From: Psammoneis japonica
Taxonomy: Eukaryota
Length of the DNA stretch: 64,000 nt
Assembly (NCBI GenBank): GCA_008632985.1
Contig: QPGO01000269.1
Location: 1 to 64,000, forward strand
Reading direction: 5' to 3'
In this document: one piece after another, positions 1 to 28,471 of the stretch
How the letters are laid out: each line of letters opens with the position of its first letter
Numbering within the stretch: position 1 is the stretch's first letter
Notes under the pieces: model-generated
What the model was told of the DNA's origin: nothing
Database searches by the model: none
What the model saw: only the letters and a program-made list of their open reading frames with translations
Position numbers and translations under genes: made by a program

Positions 1-2
1 CT

Positions 3-749
3 TGCGGCGGTGTCGACTTCGCGAACGGACCTTGTGATGCCCAAGATCATTGTGACGGTTCAGGTGGCTGTGTGGACAAGAAGCAACCGTTAACATTTGA
101 ATGCAGCCCGCCAGAAGGCCCTTGTCAGCATGCTGCGCATTGCGATGGCGAGACCGATGCATGCCCCGAAAAAGAATTCAAGCCTGCCACAACTGTTTGT
201 CTCGGGGACGGCAGCGACGCCTGCAATCCCGGCGAGCATTGCACCGGAACCGACGCTGATTGCCCAGAAGACATTGACCACAACAACGGTGGCTGTGCGT
301 TCAAGTGTGGAACAGACCAGCACATGTGTGGCGTTAAAGCTGGCCACGGTGGCGTCGAAATGAGAGCCAGAGGCAAAAACGTAATTCTCAGTGTTGGCGG
401 ATGCAATGTTGGCAACATCGACGACACGCACGAGCTCGATTGTCTCCAGTGCCAGCCAACCGGCGGTGATTTAGGCAGCATCAGACCGCAGGATGGCGAT
501 TGCACTTGCGGACACGGTGTGTCGAACTGGGCTGTTCTTGTCTGCGAGGATGATGGCGAGGGCAATCCCACTTGGTCTTGCTGTGGCAAGTGCGAGGATG
601 GCGATGGATGTTCCACCATTGACGGTGCTCCTGCTGAGTGCCCTGACACGCTCACTGCACGCCATTTGATTGGTTTGCGCCATTGGGGCGTGGATCCGTC
701 TGGATGTGCAGGAGTGGTGGATGGATGGATGGATGGATGGATTGGATGA
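3..749 (+). pseudogene. 3' part of a Cys-rich disintegrin-like repeat protein gene (cut by window edge), probably mutationally eroded
   Basis: Frame open from nt 3 (CGGVDFANGPCDAQDHCDG...). Repeats C-x(4)-C-x-G-x(4)-CP (CQHAAHCDGETDACP, CNPGEHCTGTDADCP). No Tyr in ~250 codons, His at the E-Y-C position, and the frame runs into a (GGAT)n microsatellite. Confidence 0.6.
717..748. repeat. (GGAT)n microsatellite
   Basis: ggatggatggatggatggattggatga seen directly. Confidence 0.9.
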
Positions 750-1564
750 CGACGGAAATTTGGAAAGTTGTGATGGAGGACAGCTGGATTGACAGTGAAT
801 TGGATTGGAGCGGCGGCTCGTGAGTGGAGGATACATGTGAATGCATGTTTGAACGAAAGAGGGCTCGGCGGAAGATCTAAAGAAGACGAGATGGCGGAAG
901 AGTCCCTGTTTTTGCATTTGCGATTTGAAAAACAGGAAAGCCTTGGTCCGTGAGTTGAACACAAGAACTGGCGATGTATGAAAAAACCCTCATGGATGCA
1001 AGAGAAAAAACCAACTGCACTGGATGGACAGCGTTGACATCTAATGGGAGCTCGGTGCGGTTGAAACATTGTGTGTAAGTAGAAACAGTTCAACAGTTGT
1101 CGTTTGCGATTGTTCGAAGCAACACCGTGCAACGAGCGGCGTTCGGAAAATGGTGCCGAAATCTGCGATGGAGCAATGCGGCCAGTTCGACTCAACACAA
1201 CGGCGAACGAAGCAAAACCTGCAACGTTTGTTGATGGATCGGGTCATCGACGCGAACACAACGATGCCATTGGAGCAGCAGTGGATTGCTCTTCGCAACA
1301 AGTCGCACTGATGGCGAAAAAGAAAAGCAAGACGCTTGCTGCCATCGGGGGCGTTGTCATCATCAGTCCGCACAGGCAGTGTTCATTCGAGTGGTGTGGC
1401 ATGTTCTTTGAAAGCACAACATCGCACACAGGTGCAAAGCAAAAGAGCGAAAGTGCACGTTTCGAAACACAAAGATGGAAGCCTAAAGCTGCTTCGGATG
1501 AGTGTGGCAATGTTCTGCCGCATGTTCGTGTGGTTTCGACAAAGACGATGGATGAGGCCTGGGT

Positions 1565-1772
1565 TGGGGGAAGTCTCCAGCCAGCTGCTGGCTGAAGAAT
1601 TTTATGTGGGATTTGCACTGAAAGAGTCTGTCGATCTGTGCATTAGGGAGTTTTGGTGAACGCTGGACAGACTCGTTTTCTTTAGCGTGCGTAAAAATTG
1701 CACTTGCAAAACCCCCAAACGCACTGACGAGCAGACTTTTTTCAGCCAGCAGCTGGCTGGAGACTTCCCCCA
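1565..1772. mobile_element. 208-bp MITE, copy 1 (TG...CA ends, 32-bp perfect TIR, 4-bp TSD GGGT)
   Basis: TIR tgggggaagtctccagccagctgctggctgaa at both ends; gggt at 1561-1564 and 1773-1776; second copy at 7705-7912. Confidence 0.92.
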
Positions 1773-2149
1773 GGGTTCCGTTGCCTGTGCACGACCATGT
1801 TGGGGGAAGCTCCACAGGGTTCTTGCACTGGCAACAAAGATCAATGCCTTGAGCCTCCAAGCGACGCTCAATCCATGGCATGCTGCCGCGTGCATGAGGG
1901 AATTGCTGGTGAACCGCCGCCGCCGCCCTCTCCTCTGATGCATTGACCTTGCGCTGCGCCTCCATGCGACGCAAAAAGTCGTGTTCTTTCACATCGCCGA
2001 CCAAACCACCAATGTTGGTCTGTCAATGTTTCCAAAGAGCAAAAGATGATGAGTGTTTGCATCATGGTGGACAACTGTGCATGAATGGTCACCAACGGAG
2101 CGAGTGGCCACCGATGGAACGAGTGGCCAACAATGGAACGATGCGAGTG

Positions 2150-2477
2150 CGGTGCTGCGAATTGCTGGACAATTGCGCGACACACGTGCCCGAAGGGTGA
2201 TTGTTGCTTCGGGCACGAAATTCAAGCTTTGCGCACGTAGAGACCGTAGAAAACACACCAGCATTCGAGAATGTCCGATTTGTGTAGATCACGCAGCACA
2301 GCACCACAGAGGTCATTGATGAAATTGCTTTGACGACTCATGCGACTGCAGCGAGATTTTCAATGCCACATGCCATGTGGAGTGGACATCTGCGCGAAGG
2401 AAGAATGTTGCTTCGGGCAATGACATTCGACCTTCGGGCACGTGCATCGCGCAATTGTTTTGCAATTTGCAGCACCG
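2150..2477. mobile_element. ~330-bp MITE-like element with ~48-bp imperfect inverted repeats
   Basis: cggtgctgcgaattgctggacaattgcgcgacacacgtgcccgaagg matches the reverse complement of 2431-2477; internal cttcgggca repeats; no clear TSD. Confidence 0.65.
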
Positions 2478-2547
2478 GCACCGGTTTGCATGGATGCGGC
2501 ACTTGACAGGCGCCGCCAAAGACGAATGCGCGCGGCTCGTGCGCGGA

Positions 2548-2692
2548 GAAAAGTGCGAGGTCGCTCACAAAGTGCGAGGTCCGGAAGTGCGCATGACGTC
2601 GGAAAGTGCGAGGCCGGAAGTGCAGTGTGCACGACATCGGAAATAAAGTGCGAGGTCTGGAAGTGCGCACGACGTCGGAAAGTGCGAGGTCA
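2548..2692 (+). repeat. Degenerate minisatellite (aagtgcgaggtccggaagtgcgcacgacgtcgg-type units)
   Basis: aagtgcgagg occurs five times with interleaved ggaagtgc...cgacgtcgg. Confidence 0.85.
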
Positions 2693-4659
2693 AGAAAAAC
2701 ATGAGCTCGCAATGGTGAGTTGGTCACAGACAACAGTCGAGCGAACGGGCACCACGAGACTGCACAGACAAAGGCACGCTGTGGATTTCGATGGGCAGTC
2801 AAGTTTGATTTGAAGGACGGTTCTCATGTTTCTCGTGTGACAATGAGACAAAAACAGGGGGAAACGTCAAGCCTGACGAAACCACAACGCCACCGAAACG
2901 CTTTGCACAGACACCATGGTGTCAAGTGCGACATTGTGGAAGCATCAAACGACATCAAAAGAGCAGAACGACGAAAGTGCCGTGTACAGATTGCTCCTCG
3001 CCCTTGAGCACACGAGGAAAAGTCAAAATGTGACGCGTTTGCCGAGAAACAAAGCCACGCAGCACTTGCCATGAGATTTCCATGCACCTCGGTGCATGAC
3101 AGAAGGGCACTGAGTGCCAAAGCGCTGAATGCAGCAGTCGTTTTCATCATGGGGTGCCGCATTGTTCGCTCAACAATGCTCGTTTTTTTGTTTTTTGACA
3201 CTGTTCAAAGCACTAGTTTTTTTGCGAGAGATCGACCCTCCAGCACCGGTTCTGTCACAACAAGGTAGAATCTACTGGTGTTTGCACCAGAGATGAAGAA
3301 AGAGTTGGCAAAGGCAACATCCAAGTGGGCGCACCACAGTTCTTGGCCCGTTCATTTTCTACATGGCCTGGCACAACCCAAATCTGTGTAGATTCAGCAC
3401 ATTTCGCCCTGTGGAACAGTTTTTGGGTGTGTTTTCTGGCTCACGACGCAAAACAACACGCAAAATGACACGGACAATGGCGTTTCGCCGATTTCAAAAA
3501 TGCGGTTGTTTCTGAGGTACTTTGTAGTGCACTCTCAACGGAGTGTCACATGTCATGGCACAAGGCATGTGATGAGCTCGAGAGTGCACAGGTTCACATG
3601 GGCAGATCATGGTGAAATTTTGAACTGAAGATTGGTGTTGACACCGCCGATTTTGTTGCATCAACACGCAACTCATGCATCACCATTCATGCTGTGCATT
3701 TCGTTGAGCACTCATGCGCTCATGTTCTTTCAACTTACACACACATTGTCTTTCCGCATTGTTGTTTTGTTCTGTAGGGTCTCCCTTGCCATGGGCCATC
3801 CCTGAGAGAGAAGTGCTTGCTTTGAATGTCGCTTCTACCTTGCAACGGCCACGGCAGTCTGACGACAAGTCCAAGTCACAGATGCAGCATCCGGATGACT
3901 TCACAACAAATGTGGAAGCTTGGGTCTGTGGTGTCTGAAGATGTTCAAGCTCTCAGCAGCTCAGATTTGTCGTCGAGCAATTTTGACGCGCATTTGATGT
4001 GCCTCCAGAAGGTGATGCGCAGTTTTGTTCGACAGAGAAACGAGCCATGGCGATTGTGATGGCTTACATTGAGTCTCACAGATGCAAGGTAGTTTATGAT
4101 GTGGAAATGTGTGACTCATTTGCCTCATCTGCTAAGCCTGTGCAACACATTCAGGTGTCAAAGTCGGGGCAAATTGTGCACAATGCCAAGTCTCCAAAAA
4201 CAGCACAAGAGTGCAAGCCCAAAAGAAGAATTGGCTTTGCAACTTATCATGGGAGTGTAGAGCTTATTTTTCTGGGGCATCATGTCTCTGTTGTTTTCAT
4301 GGAGTGGACATTCACTGGTGTTGTTGCCGCCAATGTGCGAGTTCGCCTTGACAACACGTTGCACTGCATTCTCTGAGAGTTTGGAATGAAAAAACAACTT
4401 GCATTTACATCACTCTATCATAACAGAAATGTATGAGCTATCCCTGGCCCTTTTGGAGAAATGGGGCAAGTGAAAGAGGAGCTACAGAAAGATGCGGACG
4501 ACGCCATTTTGATGGATTGTCGTCAGGTGGTGTGTCGAGAGGAGTCGTGATGGAGTGCCGCTTTGTGTTTTTGTACTGCGTCTATGTAGGAATGTACGTG
4601 CTTGGCTCTCGTGTAGTTTCTACGTAAAAAGTGTACCAGGCGATCTCTGGACCGCCCTC

Positions 4660-5210: not shown

Positions 5211-5349
5211 AAGAAGCTCCGCAGTTTCCCCGAGAGGTGATCGTGCTACGAGCACGTGCTTGTCCGTCCGTGTGCTTAGATTTTTTTGGGTGTGGCTTTT
5301 ACGAGCAAACTGGGAACATTTGGAGTGCACACCGGTCACCGCACCCTAC

Positions 5350-8300
5350 ATCGCATGCCTCTTCTTCCACTGCCTTCTCTTCCGCCACGCCGGTCCTTCT
5401 CTGACGAGATTTTGGCATGTGAGAAGAATGAAAGAGGTGGCCGCGGAGGTGGCCCAGAAGAACAAACTGAAAAGGAGAAAAAGGGAAGGAAAGAAAAAAA
5501 AAGAAACAAAGAAGAGAAAAAGAGAAGACATTGCTGGGCCAGCTGTCAACTTGGGGCCCTTGGCTGGGCTTGTGCCTGCAAAGCAGCTTGTCTGTAACTT
5601 GAGGTGCTGTGGTTTTGTGCTTGACAGCAAAGCTCCCGCAGCATGCAACCATGGAGTTGTTGTGTCAGTCTGTGACAGCTTCACAATGGTGTCTTTTGTG
5701 AGCATTTTGCTGCCAGTCTGCCATGGCTTCTTTTGGGCAGCTTGTTGTCCAAGCCTTGCCCCACCAGCTTGGCCACTGCTGTGGATCTACACCTTCTTCA
5801 TTCTCCAAAATTCAGTGCACACTTTGGCGGGTTTGGCTCCGTTGTGTTCAAACAATTCTCTGAAGTCTCCAAGTGAGAAAACACGGTGTCATCCTCTTCA
5901 AAAGCTCTTGACAAAAATCCCCATCGACAAGCACTGGCCTTCCCATCACATGTCATCAGCAGACCAGCACCTGCCTCAACAAGCTCACAACACATCTCCT
6001 GTGGCAGCATCTGTGGATGCTGTGCCCAAGTTTTGGCCTTGTGTGTCACAAAGTCTTGAGAGAACTTGTGTGACAAGCTTTGTCACCTGCTGCCACCTTT
6101 GGATTTCCAGTGCAGCCACAGCTGCTGCAGGAGGCTCATCCAACAACAGACAAGACAGGAGAAATTTCACATGCTTGTTGCTGCACTGCCAAGGAGAGGG
6201 GTTTTTAATGCCTTGCTCTTGCCAGTTCCCACTGGGACCTCAAATTGACCTGCAACCTTCTTCATTCCTGCTGCACTTTGCCTTGAATTTTGGATGGCCA
6301 GCTGAGCAAGAAGACCCCCTGACTGCCTGTGTTTCTCAGCTCATGTCTCTGGCTTTGTGACACATGGTGCAAAGCAACATCATAAAAATGCTTGTCGTTG
6401 TGCTTTCCCAACACTGTCCCATCAGCCAGTGCCTTGTGGCACAGCTCTTTGCTTGCTGGCTCCCAACTGGGAGCTCCTTGTGGTCTGGTGTCTTCTTCAA
6501 GCAAACCACACCCCATTCTTGCCCAAAGAGGGGGGTCAGACCAATGCACATGCCTGAAAGAGACCCTGTGTCACATCATGAGGTTCCACAATGAAAACGA
6601 GTGAGATGAATGAACAACAACACATCAGCTGCAACGGGAGCGGTTTTCTGCTTGTCTCTTCATTGTGCGAGTGTTGCGTGAAGCCTTTTTGATGTTGAAT
6701 CTACGCCACAACACACTGAGAGTGTACGCCACAAAATTTCAAAATTTCATTGATTTTGCACTGGGTCTGCGCCACTTGGCGCATGTAGAATCTCATGTAA
6801 AAATGATGTGCGCCACTGTGGCACAAAATTTGTGTGCACCCTGAACCATTCTGTGCCACTGGTGGCGCAGGGTCTGGCATGTTTTTTACACTTCTGGCAG
6901 GAATTTTTCCATTGTGACATGGACTTGCCCGATCTCTCTTGGCATCACACCACCCTGCCTCAAATTGCTTCCCACCTGCCCGTTCTCCCCCTCCTCTGCA
7001 TCTTCCTCCTTTTGCCATCCTTCTACTGCCACCCTGCTTTGCTCACTTTGTCTTTGATCCCTTGACCCCTTCCTGCTCTCCTCCCAGGCCCCCATCCTTT
7101 TGTTGCCCTCCCCGAGTCTGCCACTTCCTTCACCAACTTGGCACTGCTGTCAACCCTTTCTTCTTTCCTTTTCTGGCACTTGCTTGCACAATGGATCCCC
7201 AGATCTGGCCCTCCACATCCGCGAGTGCCTCCGTGGCCATGCAGCTGCTGGAGAACCTCCCCTCCCTTTTGTTTTTCAAGTTCCCACCTCCCTCTTTTTC
7301 TTTGACAACTTTGTCCTCCATGTCAACGATTGCCATGCCGACTCTTTTGGTGCCCCTGACATTGTCATGCCCAACCCAAGCTTTGCTTTGCCTCTCTCTC
7401 CCACATGACTGTGCCATCTTCCCTTTTCATCCTGCCCAACCCTTCCCCAGCTTTTGCAGCTCCTTTGATGCCTGCTTCTGCTGACCCTTCCACTTTTCAT
7501 TCATTTCATCAGGCTTTCCCAAACCTTGACATCTAAAAAAAAATGCTGTCACAGCACAAAAAAGAAATTGTTCTCTTGAGAACCGCAGCTGGCATGAGTC
7601 AATGACTGCATGTTCTGCTTCATCCATGCTCTGCCAGCAACTGAGGAAAAGATTGGGCATGTTGTCAGCAGCCAATGACTCTCTTGTGGGCAGACAACAC
7701 ACACTGGGGGAAGTCTCCAGCCAGCTGCTGGCTGAAGAATCTTGTGTGGAACTTGCACTGAAAGAGTCTGCCAATCTGTGCATCAGGGGGTTTTGGTGAA
7801 CGCTGCACAGACTCATTGTCTTTTGCGCACGTAAAAATCCCACTGGCAAAACCCCCAAACGCACTGACGAGCAGACTTTTTTCAGCCAGCAGCTGGCTGG
7901 AGACTTCCCCCAACACACACACACATCATTTTCCCCCGCTGTCCTCCTCAAAAGCTTTGGTGCATCATTTTCCACTTTCTTGTCAGATCCAAGTCCAAAA
8001 TTCTGCACAAACATTGTGCTGATTGTGCAAGCATGTGTTTGACAGTGCGCAGTGGACGCGACTGTTTGCAGAGCACATTTTGGAGGAAGTTGCAGGTGTG
8101 GCCATTTGCCCAGCACATTTTTTGTGATCACATTGGGCAAGACAGAAAATTTGGGTTGTGTGTCAACAGGAGAACAGGAGAAGTGGCTGGCATGTTTGCA
8201 TCACTCTCTTGACTGTGGCAGCATCTTTTGCAGGATGTTGTCATGCAGCACTGCTGGGCCAGACAAAAATGTGCTCTGCTCCTCATCAAACCATGCAAAG

Positions 8301-8730
8301 CTTGCAATGCCAGAGACAAAGAGAGGCAGGGTTGTTCATGGCATAGAGCTGAGCACCCCTGAGCAGATGGGGAAATGACTCATCTGCAACATTGGTTTCT
8401 TTGCGGGTGCTGTGCAGGTGCTGATGAGAAACCCCACCTTCACAGCCTGTTGCACCTGGATGAGTGGAGCTGGCAAGACATTGGCTGGGAAGTTGTTGAC
8501 TGCACCATGTGGTTGGGCAAATTTGGGATTGTGCACAAACCAAAAGACCACCCATCATTTTGTTTGACAACTGCCCCATGCTGGTGGTCAAAGCAGCCCT
8601 GGTTGGCAATGAGATTGCACTCAGTTGGCATCACCTTTTGGAGCAATGACCACTGCTGGGCAGGTGTGTGGTCCAGTCATCACTGGAATGCTGGGGCTGC
8701 ACCACCACTGCCATGTTGCACCAGTGCATG
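5350..8730. mobile_element. Unclassified decayed transposon-like pieces (TpA/CpG-depleted); possible LINE-like fragment near 8370-8730
   Basis: Near-absence of TA and CG; clustered (TA/TG)CGCCAC motifs at 6700-6870; hosts MITE copy 2; no unambiguous domain recognised. Confidence 0.45.
7705..7912. mobile_element. 208-bp MITE, copy 2 (TSD ACAC)
   Basis: Same 32-bp TIR and length as 1565-1772; acac at 7701-7704 and 7913-7916. Confidence 0.92.
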
Positions 8731-8799
8731 AGAGCAGAGCATGCAATTGACTCAAAATGACAAACAAATGAACTGATCATGCTGCATGACTTGCGCTCA

Positions 8800-11700
8800 C
8801 TTGTTGGGCTGTTGCACAACTGGAGACATTGAAAAAGCAGAAGCTCAAGGTTGTGCAAACTGGCAGCTGTTGTTGTTGCAAAAGCTTTTAACTGAAAATT
8901 GTCACTGCAATGTCAACCAGAGATTTTGATGGCAGAACTTGAAATTGGAATGTGCGAGATCATGCATGGCAGACAGGTGGAATGACAGATGTCAACACTC
9001 CCTCTCAACTGCAGAGCTGCTGGCATGAGAGACTCAACCAACCAGATGTAAACTTGTCAGTGATGAGTCCCTTTCACAAATTGATCAGCAAGCTGTGGAT
9101 CATCTCCTGCAGGCTCAATCCAGATCTCAAGACCCTCCACCTTCATTCAGAACCAATGACAGGGAACACCAATGTGCTTGGTGTGTGGAGAGGGCTTGGC
9201 CATTTTTGCAAACTTGAGGCATGCTTGGTTGCCTTTATGAACAACCACAAAGAAGGGATTGTGCCATCTTTTACATCAGAGAAGGCTTTGGACTTGGCAG
9301 TGGCAGGGGTCTTGCAGCCCTTGAGTCTGAATGCATGACTCTTGAATTCTTTCAAAATTTCACAAATTGGAGTCAAGTTGCACATGGCAGCCAACACAGA
9401 GTGAAGTGCTTGGCTTCAACAGCAGAAAGTGCAATCTGCATCTGCAGCTTGGACACCCACAAAATGGGACAATCACAATGCAAGATGACGTGCCCAGTGC
9501 AAAAGACTTGATGCTGACTGGGTCTTGAGAGTCTTCATGACCACAAAGGTCAGCAAAGTTGGCATCAACAAAGCAGTTGATGTGCTTGTTGTCACTGCGA
9601 CACAGACAGAGAGTCCCTTGTCCCTGGTGCCTTGCAAATGCAACAGAGTGCACTGCGCCACAACTGCGTGGGAGTGCTTGGAAGGACAGGAGAAGCAGGC
9701 AGCTTGGTGTGTGGTGCAGCAGATGTCGGGTTGGGAGCTCAATGACAAATGCACCAACATGCCAATGACAGAATGACAACCCCAGTTCTCTCATCAAATT
9801 TGGCTCCCTCTTTGTCCACATGACATGAAGAGGTGATGCTTGGGGCAGGGGCTGAGCAGCAATCTTCCACACCAGCCATCTTGAGGACCATGTCAATGAG
9901 TCCATGCTGTGTGAGAAGAAATTCCTTGGGGGGCAGTCTTGTGAATCTCAACACCAATGAAGCCACCAACTTCTCCCTTGGTTTGCATCCTGAACACGTG
10001 GCATTGATCTCTGTCTTGAATCCCTGGAGCCTCAATCTCACATTCTAGGACAGCTCCATCCTTGACAGTGAGAACAGCATCATTGACATGGACCACACAA
10101 ATCATCCTGTCCTTGAAGAATGCTGGGCATGGGTCAACTTGCAACTGAGTCCACCCTTCCAACAAGCCTTTGCACAGCTTGTGGTCAAAGAAGCTTTTGG
10201 GGGCTTGCTTGAGTCCACAGAGACTCTTGAAAAGCTTCAACGCAATGTTCTTGGATCCCAAGCTGGTGGCAAAACACTTGGGTGGCTCTGCATGAACAAC
10301 TTCCATCATCTTGGCCTGCGCAAATGCGCTGGTGTGGTTGACCTGATGGGTTGTTCAACCTTCTTGTGGGACAGCACTCAATGTGAGATGGAGAGTTGAC
10401 CACTGGACCGCTGGAGTGCAGGTCTCAAAGCTGTCTCAACTCTCTCTTTTTGCGGTTCCTCACAGACACAGAATTGTGCCTTGAACTTGAGCAGCATGCC
10501 ATCTGGCAGTCATTTCAACTTAAAGGCCCGCGTGGACTTGAGCACATTCACAGACTTTTTGTGCTTCACAAATTGCCACATTTTGCAGCGGACTGGAGCA
10601 GATGCTTTGGTTTTCATGGCTTTGATGTGTTGCTTGGCAAAATTGCCTGAGAGAGCTTTGCAAATGTTTGGGGTGTTGGCATGGCATTTGACCTTGGCAG
10701 CATGGGTTTGATGGTCTTGAACATCCAACATGTCTTGGTCACAGTTCACCTAGATCTCAGCTGAGCAGGCAAGCTGATTCTCCAACCACAACTCTTCCCA
10801 GTGATCTGGTGGTTTGCTCTCCCTTGCAATTGAAGGAGCAACCATGGTGAAGAGATCATCAAATGCAACATGACACTGGGGAGCAATGGAGCCAGCATTG
10901 AAATTGAGGACCAGAGGAACCTCGCTGGTGTGAACATCACCAAGACCAAGAAACACACCACAACAAGAACACAGCTGCCAACATGGGAGTTTCTTCCCTT
11001 CCTGCAACTTGAAATCCAAGACAAAGATGTGACACCCCCAAATGTGGAGATCATGGAGATGATGGTGTGAGATGGCAAAACCAGCACAGATGTTGGCAGG
11101 ACAAAGGCTGTGAGTTCCAGGAGTGGCAGTGCAGATGTGGGCAGCACAGCAGACTGCCACAAGAGGCCAAACAGAGTTGTTGACACCACCACCATGCCAG
11201 TGAGTTTTTGAGGCATGCAGGATCATGGCATGTGAGCCACGTTGGATGTCAACCAAATTGAGCACTCTGCAACCCCACTTTGATGAGGAGCATTTGTGCC
11301 ACAGAAGTGCACGCATTGCTGGGAGTCATTGATGTGTGAAACAATCTGGTTGGCCTTGAAAGCACCGCCATTGGTGAGGTGAGTTTGAACGATTGCACCA
11401 CATCCCATTGCCACAGTCTCATGTGCCTGTTTTGCTTGAGAACAGTTTTGACAGCACAGAATCTGACTTGGTTTTTGATGGGGATGCAACCAGAGGTGTG
11501 GTCAACAAAAATGCAGCCGCCATCATGCTGCTGGGAGGAGGGTTTTCATTGGGAATCACAGGTGCAACCCTTGAGACATGATTCAAAGTGAGCGACACTG
11601 ACAGACTGGCCAGGCTGGAGATGCTCAGAGCTTTTGTTGCCTGGTTGTGCTCAGGGTTGGATTTCTTGACAGCAGACTGCAGAGAATGGTGGTGAGCCTT

Positions 11701-13935
11701 GGTGTGCTTGCCTGTGTTGCACTCAGTGAGATCACACTTGGATGCGGCCTTGAACTTGTCATTGCCTCAAATGGACCACCTTGGAGAAGACCTTGGATCT
11801 TTGGAAAATGGAGGTGCCCAAAGTGTGCATGCCATTCAAGGAGAGATTTCTGTCCAGCAGACAGGTTGAGATTGTCTGTGCTGCCAACATTGCTCAGATT
11901 GACTTGTGGCACATGAACAGAGCCAAGAGTTGCATGGTCAGCTGGTGAGTGGGAGGAGTGCTTGCCACACTTGAGCATGAGCTCTGGCATTTCATCCAAA
12001 ACAAACTTTGAACATCTTGCTGTTTCCCCAAAAATGAATTTTGACACCATCTTCATGGAAGAGATGCTGTGGAGAGAGCAGCCAAACCCTGGAGGTTGGT
12101 GCAAGACAGGCGCAGAGCTGAGCAGTGATGTTGTGGCCCTTTCTGACCTGAAAGGTCCATGTGACGGAGCCCTCGCCGGCAATGCACATGCCTTCAGCCA
12201 CTGCGCCAAGGATCAGCAGGGTTTGGCAGCACTTGATGGGGCCATCGAAATCATTCTTGTTGGGAGTGACAGCCTGCTGGGATGCACCAGCATCAAAGAT
12301 GACCTGGAGGTCACCCGGTCCAACATGGAAAAGGGCCCACTGGGGATCAGTGGTGAGACATGTGAGTGGGGTCTCCCCAGACATGGCACAAATCACAGCG
12401 GAGGAGGGCAGAACAGGAGATGCAGACAGATCATCCAAAGCTGGCTTTGGGGCATTGGCACAATCAATGAAACAGTGAGCATGACACAGGTCAGTGACAC
12501 CAAAAATGTCTGCACTCATGCAGTTGGTCTCATGGAATGTTTCAGCATCAAAGAAGCCTTTGTGGGAGGTCATGAGCTCCGTGCATGCGTCTTGGTGAAT
12601 TGGGTGCTGTGGTTGACACACATCAAAGGGGCGGCTTGAGACATGGGATCTGGTGGAAACATTTGCACAAGAATTCAAAACAAAATGTCAAAATGGAAGC
12701 TCTTGACATCAGATTGATCGGAGTCTTCAGACGTGTTCCAGTTCCATGTGATGCACAAAATGACATTCCCTTTTGAGCACAATTTGCGCAAGCTTCGTGT
12801 GTTGAGGTTGTTCATTAAAAACACTTGTGCATCTGGCTTTTGCATTTGATTTTGACTGTGTGCATTTAAATGATTTTTTCATCAGTGTTTTTATCTCCAC
12901 AGAACACACATCACAACATTTTTCTGTGGAAACAATGCTGACTGTGCTTGGGCACTTGCACTGCAGAGATTTCTGTGTGCAAGTTGACCACTGCTACAAA
13001 ATGCACACAGAAATGTTTTGTGACAACCTTCAAACAGCAACAACATGTGGATCTTCAAAAATTTTGGCAAAAATCATTCATTTTGTTACAACTCCTTTGT
13101 TGCAATGAAAAAAAATTGATTGCACACAAAAAAACAACAATGTGTGACTGCTGAAACTGGTCTTGTCAGTGTTGCAAAACATTGAATTTGTGTGAATCTG
13201 TGATTTTGGTGGTGAAAGCTCATTTGCAAGTCAGAGACCATGCAAGAATCACACAAATGCCATTTTTGTGCATGTTTTGGTTCACATGTGGCTGGAGAAC
13301 ACGTCTGCCACGGAAACTCAACAATCAAACAGCAACAATCAGCACAGAGACACGCAGGGTTGCTTGAGGGGGGGCAGTCTTGACTTGGTGGGGACTCGGA
13401 GAGTTCTAAACAACGCAATCTGGGTTTGATGTTGCAACAGTTAAAAACAATGACTCACAACAATGGCAGATCTGGGTCCGTGGATTGGCTCCGGTGGCGC
13501 CAGAAGAATGCACTTGCGTGCCTGTCAACGAGAAGGAGGAAGGCTCAGCCACATGCAGAATCAATGTTGACAGACTGGAGATGTCTGTCAAATCAATGGA
13601 CAATGATGCCATTTGAAATGGGTGATCAAAGACTTGTTCTTGATGACAGTCATGTTCAATGACAGTCACGTTCGATGAAAACGTGGTGGCTCGGGGCGCA
13701 GCTCAGGCAAAAGAAGCTGCGCACACTTCTTTTGAGCTCGATGACCACTTGTTGCACCAACGCATGACCAGAGATGTCAAAGGAGCAGAAGTTCAAGGTT
13801 GTAAACCAGTGGCTGTTGTTGTTGCAAAAGCTGTTGACTGAAAATTATGACTGCAATGGCGATCAGAGATTTTGATGGCGGATTTTGAAGTTGGAACACG
13901 CGAGATCGCGATAGCGCAGACATGCAGAATGACAG
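8800..13935 (-). mobile_element. Decayed Ty1/copia LTR retrotransposon (CoDi-like)
   Basis: Minus-strand order: protease (VIFDAGAS), GAG-pre-integrase (LLEWHAHFGHL), integrase (NAPHQSGVAECSI), RT (KSLCGLKQAP, VVHVND), RNase H (CFVDANFA). PPT gagagggag abuts TG at 8997. Direct repeats at ~8800-8997 and ~13745-13935. Many stops and frameshifts; probable nested AT-rich insert ~12680-13300. Confidence 0.88.
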
Positions 13936-14196
13936 GGAGGAGCCACATGTTGCGGTGGTATTCGTAGATCTACTCTCTAAGTTCACAATGAAGTCGCAAG
14001 GAACGACAAGGCAGCAATACAAGTCATGGATAACAAGTCGCTACTAGATTAATATGCGTATATTGCTAGATGAATGGTTGAGATACCGCCGACGCAAGAT
14101 ATCGCTCAACTCATCATAAATGTTGTTTCAACTTCTTTTGTCACCAGCCAATAGCCAATCATGTCAATGATTGCTATTGCAAATTGCAAACCCACT

Positions 14197-18620: not shown

Positions 18621-18849
18621 TTTACTGTGAGAAAAGGCTACGAGCAATGTCTCAATCTCATTCGGATTTCTGTCAGGGAACTTTCCACGGAACGTTCTTT
18701 CTGGCAGGGTGTCAAAGTCCCGGTCATTCGAATCTTCCGAATCTACTCTTGATGACGCACTCATGACGTGGAGGTTCACTTCATCCTGTTTGCCTTCGAA
18801 AAATGCAACACAGTGCCTTGCGAGACATGTTTTCCCAAAAAAAGCACTC

Positions 18850-21014
18850 CAGATTCAGAAGTGTTGTTTGTGGCATCATCTCAAGAAACCAGAGAGCATG
18901 AAGATCCAATCGCCACTTGGGTCCAAGAAGGGAACAAAGACCTCAAGCTCTGTCCTCTCATTGAGGAAAATCAGAGCACCAAGGATGACGAGCTCAAGGA
19001 TGTTCTCTGCGACATTGTGCCTTGCAAATGGCAGCACCAGTCAACTCTTCAATGTTTTGAAATTTTGAAACACATGCCTTTAATGAGTTGGTCAAGTTTT
19101 TGTGGAGCACATCTGGAGGTTGCCACCGAAGGATGTCTTTGACTCCACCCATGTCAAGGCTGATGCAAGCAATGAACCTGGATCAAAAGCCAATGATGGG
19201 TCTAATCATGGACCCAGATTGGTTGCCAATCTGGCACCAAAAAACAATCTGAGTGGTGTGCACATGCCCTTTTTCACTCAAAAACATTGTTTTTGTGGTG
19301 TGTCAAACATCTGAGACATTTTGTTTAAATGATTGCGTCAATGGCTTTTAAGCAGCAAAACATGCAGATGGAATTTGAACCAAGCAACAGCCAAAATGGC
19401 CATGGCTTTCAGGGACCATGACGGCCTGCTTTTTTCAACCTTGTGGAAAATTTTTAATGACGCAGCGAGGGCCGCAGCATTTTGTGCAGTTTGTGTCATC
19501 AATGACAACAGTGAGGGTGCTTGTTGCAGGCTGCAGTGCAGCACAAGAGGACTGGTCTGTGAGCAACAGCAGTTGAGCCTCATTTCACTCACAATTTGCC
19601 TCTGAGGATGAGCCTTTTTCCATTGCCATGTGTGTCACACCTCCAAAGTGTCGACTGACAAAAGTGGTTCAGTCGTTTGTGTCAACATGGCAGTGAAATG
19701 GGGTCCAAAGTCAATGCCATTGCATGGGCTGACTTTATTTCTTCTCATGTCTTCCAAAAATTGGCAATCAACAAATGTTTTGTTTGGTCTGTTGAGAGTG
19801 AGTTGCACTTGCACATTTTGACAAAAGTGCTTCATGCAATGTTCAAGGGTTGATTTGCACATGTGACAACTTTTGCTTTGTGTTTTTGTGCGCACATGAT
19901 TGCGGTCATAAATTGCTTGTCAGAAACCAAGCTCTCATTTTGGGGCACAATTTGGCAACCAACAACTCAATCCACCCTCAGTTTTGAATGCATGGGTGCA
20001 TGCACGAATGCACGAGACCTTTTCTGCATGCACCCACAACAACACATTTGAAGATTGTCATGTTTGAACTTTTGAAAATTGCATCAAAAGTTTGGACCAT
20101 GCATTTCATGCAAAAAGGGGCATTTTTTGCACCTGTGTGCACCCAAGTCTGGAGCAAGTCTCCAACAAGCTGTGCAGCTGTTGTGAAAAACCACTCATGA
20201 CACGGAAAAGTGCTTGGTCACCAAAAGACACCAGCAAAAAAAATGACGTGGGAATTGCAGGCATGATCCAAAGTGGCATTGTTCAAATGTCAATCACATG
20301 TGGTCACATTGCAATGATGAAAATGCTGCTCACAAAGAAGAGTTAAATGCTGCGGTCATTCAGGCAGTTCAAAAAACACTCAAGACAAGTGCTTTGAACA
20401 AAAATGCAAATTGCCAGAGCAAAAAGTGTGGCTCTGACCCCCTCAGTGAAAAAAACTGTCATCAATTTGAAAAACTGATGTGCAGCAATTCTAAAGGATG
20501 ACCAGCTCCGCTTCAGAGATCTTGCACCCTGACAGACATTGGGAAGCCCAGAAAAAGGGTCAAAGTGATTTGCACTGGTCCAGCAGTCATCTCTTGCATG
20601 AACACCTCAGGTGAAGCAAAAAATGAGCCTCTGTGCATTCTCCTTGAGACAGCAGAATGTCGTCAACCACAATTTGCACAAATTCATGCAGAAACTGAGA
20701 ACAAAATTTTCCACAACCAAATTTGGGAAACCAAAGGAGGGCTCTTCAGGAATGATGGTCAGTGTAAAATCCAGCTCCCTTTGCTGGAATTTGACAAACA
20801 TGTGATGATGGAGACAACAGCACATGTTGACAACACCCCTTCTTCTTTGAGTCATTGTGACATGATCATGGAATGCAACTTGATGGCCAGTCTTGAGATC
20901 ACATTGGACTTTGCAAACAAAGAAATCAAATGGGAGGATGCAACCACACCCATGAAGAATGTTGACACACTCTCAAGTGCTGATGTTTTCAAGTTGATCA
21001 TCAGAGACCTGTAG
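18850..21014 (+). mobile_element. Decayed Ty3/gypsy gag-protease fragment with an internal insertion
   Basis: DDELKDVLCDIVPCKW gag-like segment; WETKGG...LLEFD...VD...CDMIMECNLMASLEITLDF...IKW...PMK matches the retropepsin C-terminal YDMIIGRDL pattern. Confidence 0.7.
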
Positions 21015-21465
21015 AAATGGCCTTGAGTCACAGGCCATCGAACCCCACCATCTCATGGCGTGCCCACGCGCGCAAACACTGGGTGCTCCCCCTCCTGATT
21101 TAATTTGACATTCACTTGTTAGCGCCAAAATGTTTTCACACTTTGCTGATTGCCATGTCACTCAATTGTTGCTCCCAGACATGTTTTGTTCAATTGGCAC
21201 TTGTTGACTTGAATGCCAACATGCCAAGTCACATGGCTGCATCATCTCATTGACGGTGGACAGTTGCATTGTGTCCCAACTGAAAAATGTTTATTTTCAC
21301 ATTGCATGTGGCATTTTTGCCAAAAGTTCTGCATTTCCATCCTCATTCTGGATGTCAATCATTCCGCCAAATTTTCACCTTTTTCTGTGTCCCCTCCACA
21401 ATCCCTCCTCACCGGCAAATCACAATGTTTCATTTGCACCATTCACCTGAGCAATCACGCATGGG

Positions 21466-21665
21466 AACATGGAATTCTTCTGCAGAGCAAAACACCAGCA
21501 GCAGCAGTTTGTCAGCTGTGGCCGGTCTGTCAGCTGGCTGTTGCATGTGAGCCACCACCACACTGTAAAAAATGGAGATGCACAAACAAACAAAATTTTG
21601 CTGTGTGTCACCCTGTCACATTGTGCAGAAAACCAGTCTGCAAAAAAGATCACCCAAGCACATTG

Positions 21666-21717
<52 letters not shown>

Positions 21718-22239
21718 GCACAGATCTGATGATGATTTTTTGTTGGCTGGGGGCTGTCTGCTCAGCAAGTGCATGTGTGAGGAGCCCACATGCAATGTTG
21801 CCTGGCTGTGCAGTGATCATGACAGATGCTGCAGCAGGACAATGAAACTGGGTCACACAGATGGGAAATTGGGCAGGTTTGGGGGGAGGGGTGGCAAGGT
21901 GCATGTGTGCAGCTTTGCTTGGTGGAGCAGTGAGACCAAGTTGGTCCACAAGAGACATGGCAACAACCACAAGGCTGGGGCTCCAGAAGCCCCACCAGAG
22001 TGGCATGGTGGAGTGATGAGTGAGACCCAAGTGGGTCACAGATGGAGCATTTTTCCATGCTGTGATGGCAGCTTGGAAGATGGCAGAGGGGTGAGAGCAT
22101 TGGCCACAGGTGTGTGCAGCATGGGCTGCCGGGTGCTGGAAGGAGGATTCAGAATTTCAAGGTGGAGCTGGGTGAGCTGGCACTGGATGATGATGGTCAG
22201 CACCAAATGGCGCAGGCAGTGGGAGAAGCATCCGGGGGC
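21466..22239 (+). repeat. ~770-bp direct repeat, copy A (contains (GA)n(GACA)n at ~21668-21717)
   Basis: Colinear with 27513-28278, e.g. shared caggtgtgtgcagcatgggctgccgggtgctggaaggaggattcagaatttcaaggtggagc. Confidence 0.88.
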
Positions 22240-22811
22240 ACTCTCCACAGTGAGACCATGCATTGATCATTTTGACCAAGCCCAAAGGTTGCCACATGGA
22301 CTCATGCAGAAGTCAGATGGATGTTTTGTTGCAATGCCTCTGGAATCCCAGCATGAATCTGCATGCACAAAAAAATTTCTGTGGAGAACTCTGCAGGAAA
22401 CATGCCAGGAGGCATGGCAACAAATTGTCTGCATGCAGCCCTGGCACATTGTCTGTCTTGCTTCCACAAGAGTCATCTGTGAGGACACAACATTGTGTGT
22501 GCACAATGCATGCAACAACAGTCAACACATGGACTCATGATGGAGAGTGATCCACCCAGGGGGGCATTGAGGTGATGGTCAATGGTGAATGGGATGAAAT
22601 GCTGCACCATCACGCAGCGAGACCTGTCCAAACTGGACCATGCCTGTGCACATGCCTGATGTCATGAAGCCTTTTTGCAGACATCACCATGTCACACCCA
22701 TGCAGTGCTTTCCCAACTGCATCACACTTTCATGCACACCCCCACTTCATCCACACAAGAATGTGTCGCTGCCCTGATTTTGTGTTGTTTGCACTGATGA
22801 AGGTTGATCAT

Positions 22812-24382
22812 TTGTCAACGGGGACCCCCCCGTAAGTCTGTGCATTGACCGTGGATGCTTCTGCCCTGTGACAAATGTGCAATGTGTTTCCCACCACAAA
22901 AACATCAAACCAACCATGAAGATTGCAGAGGCCACAACGTTTCTTGTCACTGCATTTTTGGCCAGCTTGCAAGGTGTGTGGATGGATCCTCACTTTGCAC
23001 ATGAGGCACTGCAGCATGGTGGCTTTCTGGACTTCACAAGTCCAGAATCTCATCTGCCCTCTGATGCACCTCAAAGTTGGTTGCAGCCCCATGCACCAAC
23101 AACTGCTGCAAGGGATGTGGGATGTGCTGATGCGCTGTCGCTCGGTCCGGTGACAACTCCAGTGCAGATGCCATGAAGCACAGGAGTCAAAGAGTGTTTG
23201 CTTCTGAGGATGCAATGATTTCCAGAGAGCATCCATTCAATGATGATCAGAAACAGGCTGTCCAAGAAAACTCAATGCGATGGGCATGTTGGGCATTTTA
23301 CTGCACGGGAGTCACTCAAGCATCAACGACCTTTTGAGACATCAATGCAACGCTTCACAGATCATTGCCATTGGAAGAAACCCAGAATCAACAGTTGTAG
23401 AATGACAACCTGGATTGTCCCAGAGCTGTGGCAAATGCTCTGTCACGCCAACAAAAACAGCAGTGCTTCTAGTCACAGCATGGTTGTCCCAGCTCTGCAC
23501 ACTTTTGCAGTGGTCCTTGCCCTTGCCGTTCTCTGATGGGTGGGCATTGCGAACATCCCAAAGGATTCTTTGGTTTCCATTGCCTCTGACAATGCATGCA
23601 TTTGCTTGACACTGCCAATCCACAAAAGACACCGTTTGTGGTCACTTTTGTGTTCAAAACTTCTCCATCAACAAAGAGACAGCAAGGGGCATTCCATGCC
23701 TCCCACTTGTGACTCTTCGTTCATTTCTTTTCATCATTTGGGTGGCCTTGGTGGAGGCTCATGTTTTGTTGCTGCTCAGCAATGGGGACATTTGAGACAC
23801 ACAATTCTTGTCATCACAAAAATCTTTCTGCTGTCAATCCTTTTGATCAAATCTCACCCATGGAATCAGAACAAATGATTTGCAGGAAAGGATCAACAAC
23901 ATGACAGCGGCAACAACCAAAGAAACATTTGTGAGACACGAGACGTTGACGCAACACCACAAAGAACATTGACATTTTGCGACTTGCTCCTGGCACTGAA
24001 GCTCTTGTTTTCTTCCATGCCAGCACCATGCATCATGTGCCAGGATTGCATGCTTCTTTTGTCACTTTTTTCTTTCATTTGGCTGGGCTTGGACGAGTTT
24101 GGCGCATCATTGCTTGGTGAGACGGCAACATTCAGAACCACAATTGTCATCATTGAAAAAACACTTTCACCTGGCAATCCTTTTCTCACCAAAACTTGGT
24201 GGCAGGAGCAGAACAAACGATTTGTTGAAAAGGATTGCCAGCAGAACAGCTGGAACAAGGTTGGCATGCAACAGACTGAAACAGAAATTGTCGCGGTGAC
24301 AACACAAGAAGGGTTGCGTTTCACTTGCAAAAAATGCTCCATCAGATGGTCATACAGACTTGCGGGGGGTTCCCATTGACAA
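22812..24382. mobile_element. ~1.6-kb TIR DNA-transposon relic, superfamily unresolved
   Basis: ttgtcaacggggacccccccgtaagtctgt versus reverse complement of acagacttgcggggggttcccattgacaa (~30-bp imperfect TIR). Confidence 0.7.
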
Positions 24383-28278: not shown

Positions 28279-28471
28279 GGGATGAGGAGGCAAGAAGATG
28301 CCCGCTTGCGGTTCTGTCGAGAGACGCACGTCCCCCAAAACTGCCACGTCATCATTCCCACGTGCTCACTTTTTTTCTGTCATCTTTCTCGGTTCTCGGC
28401 ACAAACATTGTCTCTCTCTACATATTACAAGTACTAGCAAGCAATAAGACAGTCTTCCAACAACACCAGTG

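What the first reader, a model, noticed from the sequence alone, without database searches (positions are those of the whole stretch)
5350..13950. Repeat-targeted TpA->TpG/CpA hypermutation ('reverse RIP') on top of CpG decay
Seen: transposon domains (about 1-4390, 5350-13950, 18760-28410, 42680-43445, 47665-50120, 51810-60370) are almost free of TA, while genes and unique intergenic DNA beside them are TA-rich. Conserved motifs give the direction of change: copia KSLYG->KSLCG (10217-10219) and YVDD->HVND; gypsy YDM->CDM (20856); Ngaro DGFYR->DGFCW (53117-53122, TA->TG next to CG->TG). Known: CpG->TpG follows from CG methylation of diatom transposons, and fungal RIP creates TpA rather than removing it, so neither explains TpA loss. 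Inference: a heritable repeat-directed A:T->G:C mutator. Candidates are error-prone repair of T:G mismatches by a Pol eta-like polymerase (TA is its hotspot in somatic hypermutation) or an adenine/thymine modification followed by deamination. I know of no description of this, but could not search the literature.
Basis: partly seen in the sequence, partly recalled or inferred. Interest (0 to 1): 0.95.

Follow-up and report, generated by a model that had tools for sequence, protein, structure and literature searches.

The report
TpA-erasing hypermutation of diatom transposon relics
In this diatom DNA, old mobile-element relics have had nearly every TA step turned into TG or CA, on top of ordinary CG decay, which matches a mutation process first reported in 2026 in an unrelated alga and suggests it is more widespread.

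Summary
Six sharply bounded domains cover 33.9 of the 64 kb. They hold 4.0 TA per kb, against 38.5 per kb in the flanking gene DNA. The finding's own stretch holds 30 TA where 332 are expected.

The direction of change is supported. In the one element confirmed by homology, a Ty1/copia relic, 0 of 11 conserved Tyr columns survive; 9 are now His or Cys. None of 19 conserved Arg columns survive, while other residues are kept at 38-93%. The missing TA plus missing CG (66.0 per kb) equals the extra TG+CA (64.1 per kb). One domain lost TA but kept its CG, so the two decays are separate processes.

Surviving TA sites reveal an extended motif, T-A-Y. The same motif appears in a 97%-identical pair of metagenomic copia copies, where 39 of 90 differences lie at TpA.

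AA is untouched, which argues against the Pol eta idea. TAG is disfavoured, which argues against an ADAR-like enzyme.

The process is already in print for the chlorarachniophyte Bigelowiella natans (bioRxiv 10.64898/2026.01.13.699255). My searches found no report for diatoms. The host genes here are diatom-like. I therefore file this as a new member of a very recently described kind. The enzyme is unknown.

The parts
5348..13801 (.). TA-poor, CG-poor domain of the finding (27 TA; TA o/e 0.05, CG o/e 0.20)
   Evidence: Two-state segmentation; per-kb counts and mass balance
5348..7704 (.). Unclassified repeat relic (TA o/e 0.08, CG 0.23)
   Evidence: no Pfam match in its ORFs
7705..7912 (+). 208-bp MITE-like insert with inverted ends of about 35 bases. 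It is 92% identical to the copy at 1565-1772. It keeps 5 CG but only 1 TA (the sister copy has 4).
7913..8835 (.). Unclassified relic (1 TA and 6 CG in 923 bases)
8836..8988 (-). Copia LTR, downstream in the element's own orientation; fully converted
   Evidence: Self-BLAST pair with 13784-13935
9066..12315 (-). Decayed copia gag-pol, spread over three reading frames. 360 conserved columns, 223 retained; Tyr 0 of 11, Arg 0 of 19.
   Evidence: tblastn of 39 homologues
9896..10354 (-). Reverse-transcriptase piece (Pfam RVT_2, 35 bits) with KSLCG and HVND in place of KSLYG and YVDD
13784..13935 (-). Copia LTR, upstream in the element's orientation, at the domain edge. It still holds TA (13802, 13846, 13912) and CG where the other LTR has TG/CA.
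1..4064 (.). TA-poor domain that keeps its CpG (TA o/e 0.13, CG 0.95); runs off the window; unclassified
   Evidence: no Pfam match or homologue
18640..28418 (.). TA-poor, CG-poor domain. It holds direct repeats 21466-22239 and 27513-28278 (72% identical), which may be LTRs. It ends 30 bases before the ORF of the GST gene.
42680..43445 (.). Short TA-poor domain (4 TA; o/e 0.10; CG 0.41)
47649..50123 (.). TA-poor, CG-poor domain; shares a 290-base repeat with 26371-26659 on the opposite strand
51805..60197 (.). TA-poor, CG-poor domain with internal repeats (51813-51935 / 55867-55982)

Best explanation
A mutation process in this diatom's nucleus acts on DNA already integrated in the chromosome. 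It turns the step 5'-TA-3' into TG or CA (A:T>G:C transitions on either strand), and it acts only inside silenced mobile-element relics. It has run to near saturation there, leaving about 5% of the expected TA. This erases every Tyr codon and the stops TAA and TAG, and so destroys the elements' genes. It prefers an A flanked as T-A-Y. It is independent of, and apparently faster than, the CG>TG/CA decay caused by cytosine methylation, which has also hit five of the six domains.

It is the same kind of process as the TpA hypermutation of integrated viral DNA measured in Bigelowiella natans.

Shown here: the dinucleotide pattern, its borders, the direction of change, the flanking motif, and its independence from CpG decay.

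Inferred: that part of it is post-integration; that the targeting signal is a chromatin or 'foreign DNA' mark rather than repetition; and the enzyme. My best guess for the enzyme is a TadA/ADAT2-type adenine deaminase acting on DNA, about 0.45 on its own. The confidence below is for the process, not the enzyme.
For: 1. Size and borders. The domains hold 4.0 TA per kb against 38.5 in the flanks. Borders are sharp to 250 bases or less. One lies 30 bases from the ORF of a host gene.

2. Mass balance. TA deficit 34.5 plus CG deficit 31.5 gives 66.0 per kb, against a TG+CA excess of 64.1 per kb. In 1-4064 there is no CG deficit; the TA deficit is 31.2 and the excess 36.3.

3. Polarity. Across 360 conserved copia columns, Tyr is kept 0 of 11 times (6 His, 3 Cys, 2 Phe; Fisher P = 6e-6 against the rest). 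Arg is kept 0 of 19 times (5 His, 3 Gln, 5 Cys, 3 TGA, 3 other). Other residues are kept at 38-93%. Of 137 replaced columns, 17 need one TA>TG/CA change and 39 need one CG>TG/CA change. 18 need another transition, 34 a transversion, and 29 need two or more changes.

4. Relatives are not TA-free. 33 metagenomic copia loci have TA o/e 0.31-0.81, median 0.57.

5. After integration. The two copia LTRs differ by TG/CA double differences in 4 of 8 double differences. The edge LTR keeps TA and CG where the inner one has TG/CA. In the second repeat pair, CA/TG accounts for 19 of 84 double differences; the next most common class has 6. The MITE copy inside the domain lost 3 of 4 TA but kept 5 of 7 CG.

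6. Motif. TA survival relative to the flanks is 0.265 for YTAR, 0.100 for sites with one favourable strand, and 0.018 for RTAY (chi-square 73, P = 1e-16).

7. Independent data. L016 is an intact copia (1224-aa pol ORF; RVT_2 138 bits). L017 is a 97%-identical copy. 39 of their 90 differences lie at TpA, and L016 holds the TA in 33 of the 39. 33 of 105 TA sites are changed. The target A is followed by Y at 29 of 104 sites and by R at 4 of 106 (P = 9e-7). Six other locus pairs show 7-14% of differences at TpA. Four of the 33 loci (L017, L020, L021, L022) have RTAY as only 1-9% of their TA sites, against 19-36% in the other 29.

8. Precedent. In B. natans mutation-accumulation lines, 230 of 231 mutations in two viral inserts were A>G or T>C, and all of these fell on TpA, at about 6e-7 per site per generation.
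Against: - No whole genome and no reads could be examined. Polymorphism, current activity and an assembly artefact are therefore not tested directly for this window.
- Only one of the six domains is a homology-confirmed transposon.
- Ancestral TE composition is inferred from flanks and distant relatives, not from a family consensus.
- CA/TG double differences can come from CG as well as from TA.
- The T-A-Y rule predicts Cys rather than His at Tyr codons preceded by a pyrimidine. The count there is 3 Cys and 3 His. This is a mild tension based on few sites.
- The strand bias seen in L017 (24 TG, 9 CA; P = 0.014) is absent from the window, where TG and CA are balanced and randomly ordered.
- Nothing here identifies an enzyme.
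Confidence: 0.8

Rival explanations
1. Same in-situ process, but the chemistry is on thymine. A TET/JBP-type dioxygenase marks T at (R)TpA in silenced elements as 5hmU or a derivative. Mispairing or faulty repair then gives T>C.
For: T-A-Y on one strand reads R-T-A on the other, so the data cannot tell which base is attacked. In dinoflagellates 5hmU is enriched on repeats and silences transposons, and older work found it replacing T preferentially in TA and TC (PMC11572971, passages read).
Against: The passages of that paper I read report no link from 5hmU to T>C hypermutation. No TET/JBP gene could be looked for here. I know of no report of 5hmU in diatoms (recalled, not searched).
Confidence: 0.2
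2. Editing of the retrotransposon RNA by an adenosine deaminase before reverse transcription, so that elements arrive already mutated.
For: L017 shows a sense-strand bias, 24 TA>TG against 9 TA>CA. The partly converted copy at 18224-18560 shows 10 TA/TG against 2 TA/CA differences.
Against: The two LTRs of one insert differ at such sites. A MITE and unclassified non-coding repeats are hit as well. TG and CA are balanced and randomly ordered in the window. About 95% conversion is too much for one round. In B. natans the changes arose de novo in a resident single-copy insert. TAG, the ADAR optimum (review PMC10661471, Table 1), is disfavoured.
Confidence: 0.07
3. Sequencing, base-calling or polishing artefact at heavily modified bases. 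The real DNA still has TA and CG.
For: No reads could be laid. Modified bases are known to cause systematic miscalls in some long-read assemblies (recalled).
Against: The copia relic also carries frameshifts, 34 transversion-type and 29 multi-step replacements, while host ORFs of 556-740 aa are intact. The same signature and motif occur in the metagenome contigs L017 and L020-L022 and in Illumina mutation-accumulation data of B. natans. Run X1 holds 63% of the sampled 31-letter words of the stretch, but it may be the source sample and so is not independent.
Confidence: 0.04
4. Error-prone patch repair by a Pol eta-like polymerase after T:G mismatches from 5mC deamination.
For: TA is the stronger half of the WA hotspot (recalled). 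TA loss and CG loss coincide in five of six domains.
Against: AA is not depleted (o/e 1.20 vs 1.19). Domain 1-4064 lost TA with CG o/e 0.95. Locus L033 has a window with CG o/e 0.02 and TA 0.41. The young MITE copy lost its TA faster than its CG.
Confidence: 0.03
5. The elements were TA-poor when they arrived, or selection removed TA.
For: None found.
Against: Conserved Tyr survives 0 of 11 times, so no working reverse transcriptase is possible. Relatives have a median TA o/e of 0.57. Unrelated repeats share the same 0.05-0.13. The excess TG+CA balances the deficit.
Confidence: 0.02

Closest known systems
TpA hypermutation of integrated NCLDV and virophage DNA in Bigelowiella natans (Mettrop et al., bioRxiv 10.64898/2026.01.13.699255; abstract, Results and Discussion read)
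   Same: Both show A:T>G:C transitions only at TpA, giving TpG or CpA depending on strand. Both are confined to foreign or mobile DNA. Both leave a long-term signature of low TpA with high CpA+TpG. In B. natans the low-TpA coding sequences are enriched for reverse transcriptase and DDE domains.
   Different: The host here is a diatom (stramenopile), not a chlorarachniophyte (rhizarian). The targets are LTR-retrotransposon and unclassified repeat relics. Conversion is near saturation (TA o/e 0.05) against a 1.8-fold TpA drop in the NCLDV insert. CpG decay is superimposed. An extended T-A-Y motif is seen here that the preprint's main text does not mention; its supplementary tables were not available to me. 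No rate was measured here.
Repeat-induced point mutation (RIP) of fungi
   Same: Both inactivate mobile DNA heritably by dinucleotide-specific transitions within sharply bounded domains.
   Different: RIP is C>T, mainly at CpA, and creates TpA. Here TpA is destroyed and G+C is gained. Dependence on repeats, a premeiotic stage and a RID-type methyltransferase are not shown here.
CpG decay of methylated transposons (5mC deamination)
   Same: CG>TG/CA is present in five of the six domains. Conserved Arg survives 0 of 19 times, and 16 of those are now His, Gln, Cys or TGA.
   Different: It cannot remove TA, and it is absent from domain 1-4064, which nevertheless lost its TA.
ADAR hyperediting and APOBEC editing of viruses and retroelements in animals
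   Same: Both are deaminase-type, context-specific hypermutation of parasitic nucleic acids. ADAR also favours a 5' U.
   Different: ADAR prefers UAG on dsRNA (PMC10661471, Table 1), whereas here TAG is disfavoured and integrated DNA is changed. APOBEC gives C>T. ADARs are restricted to animals (recalled).
5hmU marking of transposons in dinoflagellates (PMC11572971, passages read)
   Same: A repeat-targeted base modification in a SAR protist, with a reported preference for T in TA.
   Different: It is described as an epigenetic mark. The passages I read report no mutational outcome, and it is not known in diatoms.

Membership tests
TpA hypermutation of foreign DNA (B. natans type) | Changes are A:T>G:C transitions | tested here: met
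   Conserved Tyr became His or Cys in 9 of 11 columns. 17 replaced columns are explained by a single TA>TG/CA change. The TA and CG deficits balance the TG+CA excess.
TpA hypermutation of foreign DNA (B. natans type) | Restricted to the TpA dinucleotide | tested here: met
   AA and AT o/e do not differ between domains and flanks. 39 of 90 L016/L017 differences lie at TpA, against 7-14% in six other pairs.
TpA hypermutation of foreign DNA (B. natans type) | Confined to foreign or mobile DNA, with neighbouring genes spared | tested here: met
   Six domains with borders sharp to 250 bases or less. Only one is a homology-confirmed transposon; the others are repeats or unclassified.
TpA hypermutation of foreign DNA (B. 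natans type) | Arises de novo in resident DNA at a rate orders of magnitude above background | not testable with these tools
   No genome, reads or strains were available. The LTR and MITE comparisons show only that part of it followed integration.
Fungal RIP | C>T at CpA, creating TpA and lowering G+C | tested here: not met
   TpA is depleted about ten-fold. G+C in the domains is 0.47-0.52, against 0.44-0.48 in the flanks.
ADAR-type hyperediting | 5' U and 3' G neighbour preference (UAG), acting on dsRNA | tested here: not met
   3' G is disfavoured: 2 of 58 target sites in L016/L017. YTAR sites survive best in the window. The LTRs of one insert differ at such sites.
Pol eta WA-hotspot mutagenesis | Both TA and AA are mutated, downstream of a C-deamination mismatch | tested here: not met
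   AA o/e is 1.20 in the domains and 1.19 in the flanks. TA loss occurs without CG loss in 1-4064.
TadA/ADAT2-type adenine deaminase as the agent | Target A preceded by U/T and followed by C, as in the tRNA anticodon loop; deaminase gene present | tested here: inconclusive
   The T-A-Y preference fits the ACG context listed for TadA/ADAT2 in PMC10661471, Table 1 (data). Eukaryotic ADAT2/3 substrates mostly have G or A at position 35 (recalled). The gene could not be sought because no genome is held.
Ty1/copia LTR retrotransposon (element at 8836-13935) | RVT_2 reverse transcriptase, gag/integrase remains, flanking LTRs | tested here: met
   RVT_2 at 35-41 bits and a weak gag_pre-integrs match. 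tblastn with 39 homologues covers 9066-12315. The LTR pair is 82% identical.
   No Pfam match reached significance in the ORFs scanned. No homologue was found for 22808-24376. The copia homologues do not hit these domains. The elements may simply be too decayed.

The most novel reading that the evidence does not exclude
Diatoms, chlorarachniophytes and perhaps other SAR protists share a dedicated genome-defence enzyme that edits adenine (or thymine) at T-A-Y in chromosomal DNA of silenced mobile and viral elements. It would be a RIP-like system of opposite polarity that wipes out Tyr codons and two of the three stop codons. Its catalytic part would be a natural DNA adenine deaminase descended from TadA/ADAT2.
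Probability: 0.4. Interest if true: 0.9.

Novelty: new member of a known kind. Interest (0 to 1): 0.72.

Why it matters
Until 2026 no cellular system was known that removes TpA from invading DNA, and the single report concerns one rhizarian alga.

- **Spread.** Finding the same signature at saturation in a diatom, plus an intermediate stage in environmental copia copies, suggests a widespread and ecologically relevant genome defence rather than an oddity of one strain.
- **A handle on the enzyme.** The T-A-Y motif gives a concrete biochemical clue and a cheap diagnostic: loss of RTAY sites appears first.
- **Biotechnology.** As far as I recall, no natural enzyme that deaminates adenine in DNA with this specificity is known. 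Such an enzyme would interest base-editing work.
- **Annotation.** Converted elements keep only TGA stops. They throw up long, Tyr-free false ORFs and escape Pfam-based transposon detection.

Tried and rejected
- **Whole genome:** not held, so no genome-wide scan, no family consensus and no search for deaminase or dioxygenase genes.
- **Sequencing runs:** one holder, X1, with 63% of the sampled words; it may be the source sample. No RNA holder was listed.
- **ORF 3-746 in domain 1:** no Pfam match and no homologue.
- **Gypsy and Ngaro identities:** not confirmed.
- **Strand-coherent bursts:** the TG/CA order in the converted domains is random (z = +0.6, +1.4, +0.7, -0.9, -1.7). In L016/L017, clustering of hits (P = 0.07) and of strand (P = 0.13) is weak.
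- **Region 17000-18000:** it looked partly converted (TA o/e 0.25, TG 108 vs CA 62), but its RTAY share is normal (0.22). I do not count it.
- **P0254 in metagenomes:** its own locus was not retrieved; the best match was 50% identical.
- **Earlier notes of this scan:** nothing relevant.
- **Literature searches for diatoms:** searches found no diatom report. The passages checked hold no mention of TpA or transposon hypermutation: PMC2806351, 10.1101/2025.10.24.684338, PMC6604790 and 10.64898/2026.07.24.739820.

Full report
**1. The observation.**
The window has no N and 48% G+C. In 1-kb windows, TA observed/expected (o/e) drops to 0.00-0.15 in blocks and is 0.4-0.75 elsewhere.

A two-state segmentation on TA density gives five TA-poor domains:

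| Domain | TA o/e | CG o/e |
|---|---|---|
| 1-4064 | 0.13 | 0.95 |
| 5348-13801 | 0.05 | 0.20 |
| 18640-28418 | 0.05 | 0.25 |
| 47649-50123 | 0.07 | 0.29 |
| 51805-60197 | 0.06 | 0.34 |

A direct count confirms it: 4 TA, o/e 0.10, CG 0.41.
- Of the 16 dinucleotides, only TA and CG are low and only TG and CA are high (1.78 and 1.72, against 1.26 and 1.24 in the flanks). AA and AT are unchanged.
- The finding's own stretch holds 30 TA against 332 expected at the flank rate (P = 1.8e-101).
- Borders are sharp at 250-base resolution. Domain 18640-28418 ends 30 bases before the ORF that encodes a glutathione S-transferase.

**2. What the DNA is.**
Host ORFs encode ordinary proteins: STT3, GST, a bestrophin-like channel, a sugar-nucleotide transporter, an inositol-phosphatase-type enzyme and an AMP-binding enzyme.

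Every named hit among the 120 listed STT3 matches is a diatom, and none exceeds 61% identity. The window is therefore from a diatom with no close relative in that database. It is unlikely to be Bigelowiella natans.

Inside the TA-poor domains, Pfam recognises only one thing: a Ty1/copia reverse transcriptase at 9896-10354 on the minus strand, at 35-41 bits.
- Self-comparison gives its LTRs as 8836-8988 and 13784-13935.
- The same comparison finds a second direct-repeat pair, 21466-22239 and 27513-28278.
- It also finds a 208-base MITE-like insert present in two domains (1565-1772 and 7705-7912).
- Smaller repeats are shared within and between domains.

The quoted letters are present.

**3. Direction of change.**
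I searched the 153-residue RT piece against 1.84 billion representatives. 421 matched, and the best 150 were returned.
- All four columns in which Tyr is the majority residue are His, His, Cys and His in the window, with codons CAC, CAT, TGT and CAT.
- I then aligned the 39 homologues of 350 residues or more, out of the 150, to 8700-14000 by tblastn. I kept minus-strand matches only, and only columns with at least 8 homologues and at least 60% agreement.
- That left 360 columns over 9066-12315, of which 223 are retained.
- Tyr is retained 0 of 11 times (6 His, 3 Cys, 2 Phe).
- Arg is retained 0 of 19 times (5 His, 3 Gln, 5 Cys, 3 TGA, 1 Lys, 1 Thr, 1 Leu).
- Every other residue is retained at 38-93%. 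Fisher P is 6e-6 for Tyr and 1.5e-9 for Arg.

The 137 replaced columns break down as follows:

| Change needed | Columns |
|---|---|
| One CG>TG/CA change | 39 |
| One TA>TG/CA change | 17 |
| Another transition | 18 |
| A transversion | 34 |
| Two or more changes | 29 |

The matches jump between three frames. The element is therefore old and truly decayed.

The missing dinucleotides are fully accounted for. The TA deficit of 34.5 plus the CG deficit of 31.5 gives 66.0 per kb, against a TG+CA excess of 64.1 per kb. The balance also holds domain by domain.

**4. The elements were not TA-poor on arrival.**
Thirty-three metagenomic loci encoding relatives of a copia protein have whole-locus TA o/e of 0.31-0.81, with a median of 0.57. 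That is the same as this diatom's gene DNA.

**5. TA loss is separate from CpG decay, and faster.**
- Domain 1-4064 lost its TA but has CG o/e 0.95.
- Conversely, locus L033 has a window with CG o/e 0.02 and TA 0.41.
- The two MITE copies are 92% identical. The copy inside domain 5348-13801 has 1 TA and 5 CG; its sister has 4 TA and 7 CG. The surrounding relic has CG o/e 0.1-0.2. The insert therefore arrived after most of the CpG decay, yet has already lost its TA.

**6. At least part of the change followed integration.**
The two LTRs of one insert are identical when it integrates.
- Here they are 82% identical.
- 4 of their 8 adjacent double differences are CA against TG.
- The LTR at the domain edge still has CG and TA where the inner one has CA or TG.
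- In the second repeat pair, CA/TG accounts for 19 of 84 double differences, and the next most common class has 6.

One caveat applies. Double differences can derive from CG as well as from TA.

**7. An extended motif.**
Surviving TA sites are not a random sample. Their density relative to the flanks is 0.265 for YTAR, 0.100 for sites with one favourable strand, and 0.018 for RTAY (63, 67 and 7 sites; chi-square 73, P = 1e-16). Coding bias in the flanks cannot explain this, because the raw ratio of 63 to 7 compares with an even expectation. The pattern is what one expects if the A of T-A-Y is the preferred target on either strand.

TG and CA are balanced and randomly ordered in the converted domains. 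This fits site-by-site hits decided by local context.

One tension remains. Tyr codons preceded by a pyrimidine should mostly give Cys, yet the count is 3 Cys and 3 His.

**8. Independent confirmation at an earlier stage.**
Among the metagenomic loci, L016 is an intact copia, with a pol ORF of 1224 aa and RVT_2 at 138 bits. L017 is a 97%-identical copy lacking about 1.3 kb.
- Of their 90 differences, 39 lie at TpA, and L016 holds the TA in 33 of the 39.
- Six other locus pairs show 7-14% of differences at TpA.
- Of 105 cleanly aligned TA sites in L016, 33 are TG (24) or CA (9) in L017.
- The base 3' of the target A is a pyrimidine at 29 of 104 opportunities and a purine at 4 of 106 (odds ratio 9.9, P = 9e-7).
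- Four of the 33 loci (L017, L020, L021, L022), which are also the four with the lowest TA o/e, have RTAY as only 1-9% of their TA sites. The other 29 have 19-36%.
- In the window, the same index is 0-4% in five converted domains, 13% in 1-4064, 15% in the two repeat-bearing spacers beside them, and 28-38% in the five gene-bearing flank segments.

Three of the 150 RT homologues from public data have no Tyr at all, including P0254 with 330 residues. Converted copies are therefore being annotated as proteins elsewhere.

**9. What is known.**
A 2026 preprint (10.64898/2026.01.13.699255; abstract, Results and Discussion read) reports a mutation-accumulation experiment in B. natans.
- 231 of 302 nuclear mutations fell in two integrated viral regions.
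- 230 of those were A>G or T>C, and all of these GC-biased changes were at TpA.
- The rate was about 6e-7 per site per generation, and only some lines were affected.
- They proposed an ADAT2-like DNA adenosine deaminase.
- The main text mentions neither diatoms nor a flanking-base preference. Its supplements were not available to me.

Six searches of the library found no report of this in diatoms. In four papers I checked only passages around search terms. These were on Phaeodactylum retrotransposons, diatom transposons, the Phaeodactylum mutation rate and phytoplankton mutation spectra. None mentions it.

**10. Mechanism.**
The core is well supported: a TpA-specific A:T>G:C mutator acting on integrated DNA within silenced mobile-element domains.

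The agent is inferred.
- The Pol eta proposal is disfavoured, because AA is untouched and TA loss does not need CG loss.
- An ADAR-like enzyme is disfavoured, because TAG, its optimum (PMC10661471, Table 1), is the poorest context here. Resident DNA also changes.
- A TadA/ADAT2-type deaminase fits a 5' T and a 3' C, matching the U-A-C of the anticodon loop. The ACG context is listed in the same table. The early base editors' YAC preference is recalled, not checked. Eukaryotic ADAT2/3 substrates do not generally have a pyrimidine after A34 (recalled).
- The data fit attack on the T of R-T-A equally well. In dinoflagellates, 5hmU marks and silences repeats and was reported to replace T in TA and TC (PMC11572971, passages read).
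- What directs the process to these domains was not addressed here. Candidates are chromatin state, small RNAs or repetition. In B. natans the main target is single-copy.

**11. Verdict.**
The Pol eta mechanism is not, and the claim that nothing similar has been described is outdated.

This is a new member, in diatoms and at saturation, of a kind of system first described in 2026. It adds a flanking-base rule, T-A-Y, that can be tested at once in the published B. natans data.

Noticed in passing
window 1565-1772 and 7705-7912: A 208-base MITE-like element with inverted ends of about 35 bases. The two copies are 92% identical. The second copy sits in a CA-rich tract that appears duplicated at both ends.
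   Followed up: partly
window 1-4064 (ORF 3-746, + strand): A TA-poor domain that keeps normal CpG. It holds a 248-residue Cys- and His-rich ORF with no Tyr, no Pfam match and no homologue. Whether it is a transposon, a viral insert or a hit host gene is unknown.
   Followed up: partly
window 4700-5250 and 18224-18560: A repeat of about 190 bases with TGAATGTTAAAT-type units lies just outside two converted domains. The second copy differs from the first by 10 TA/TG against 2 TA/CA differences. Both spacers have an intermediate RTAY share (15%), which suggests partial, strand-biased conversion.
   Followed up: partly
window, all TA-poor domains: Only TGA stops remain (for example 228 TGA against 13 TAA and 4 TAG in 5348-13801). 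All six frames therefore carry many ORFs of 90-370 codons that are not genes. Gene finders would call Tyr-free false proteins here.
   Followed up: yes
proteins P0254, P0219, P0238: These public-database 'proteins' related to copia RT contain no Tyr and have Cys or His at conserved Tyr positions. They are probably translated from similarly converted elements in other organisms. Their origin could not be looked up.
   Followed up: partly
L033, 1-kb window starting at 3501: A metagenomic copia-bearing contig with CG o/e 0.02 and TG/CA 2.09 but TA o/e 0.41. This is pure CpG decay without TA loss.
   Followed up: no
window 17000-18000: TA o/e is 0.25 with normal CpG, and TG exceeds CA (108 vs 62). 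No Pfam match. The RTAY share is normal (22%), so this is probably ordinary composition rather than conversion.
   Followed up: partly
window 60536-60663 and 60670-60796; 39550-39646 and 39912-40010: Short direct repeats (94% and 88% identical; the first pair adjacent, the second about 270 bases apart) in otherwise ordinary DNA.
   Followed up: no
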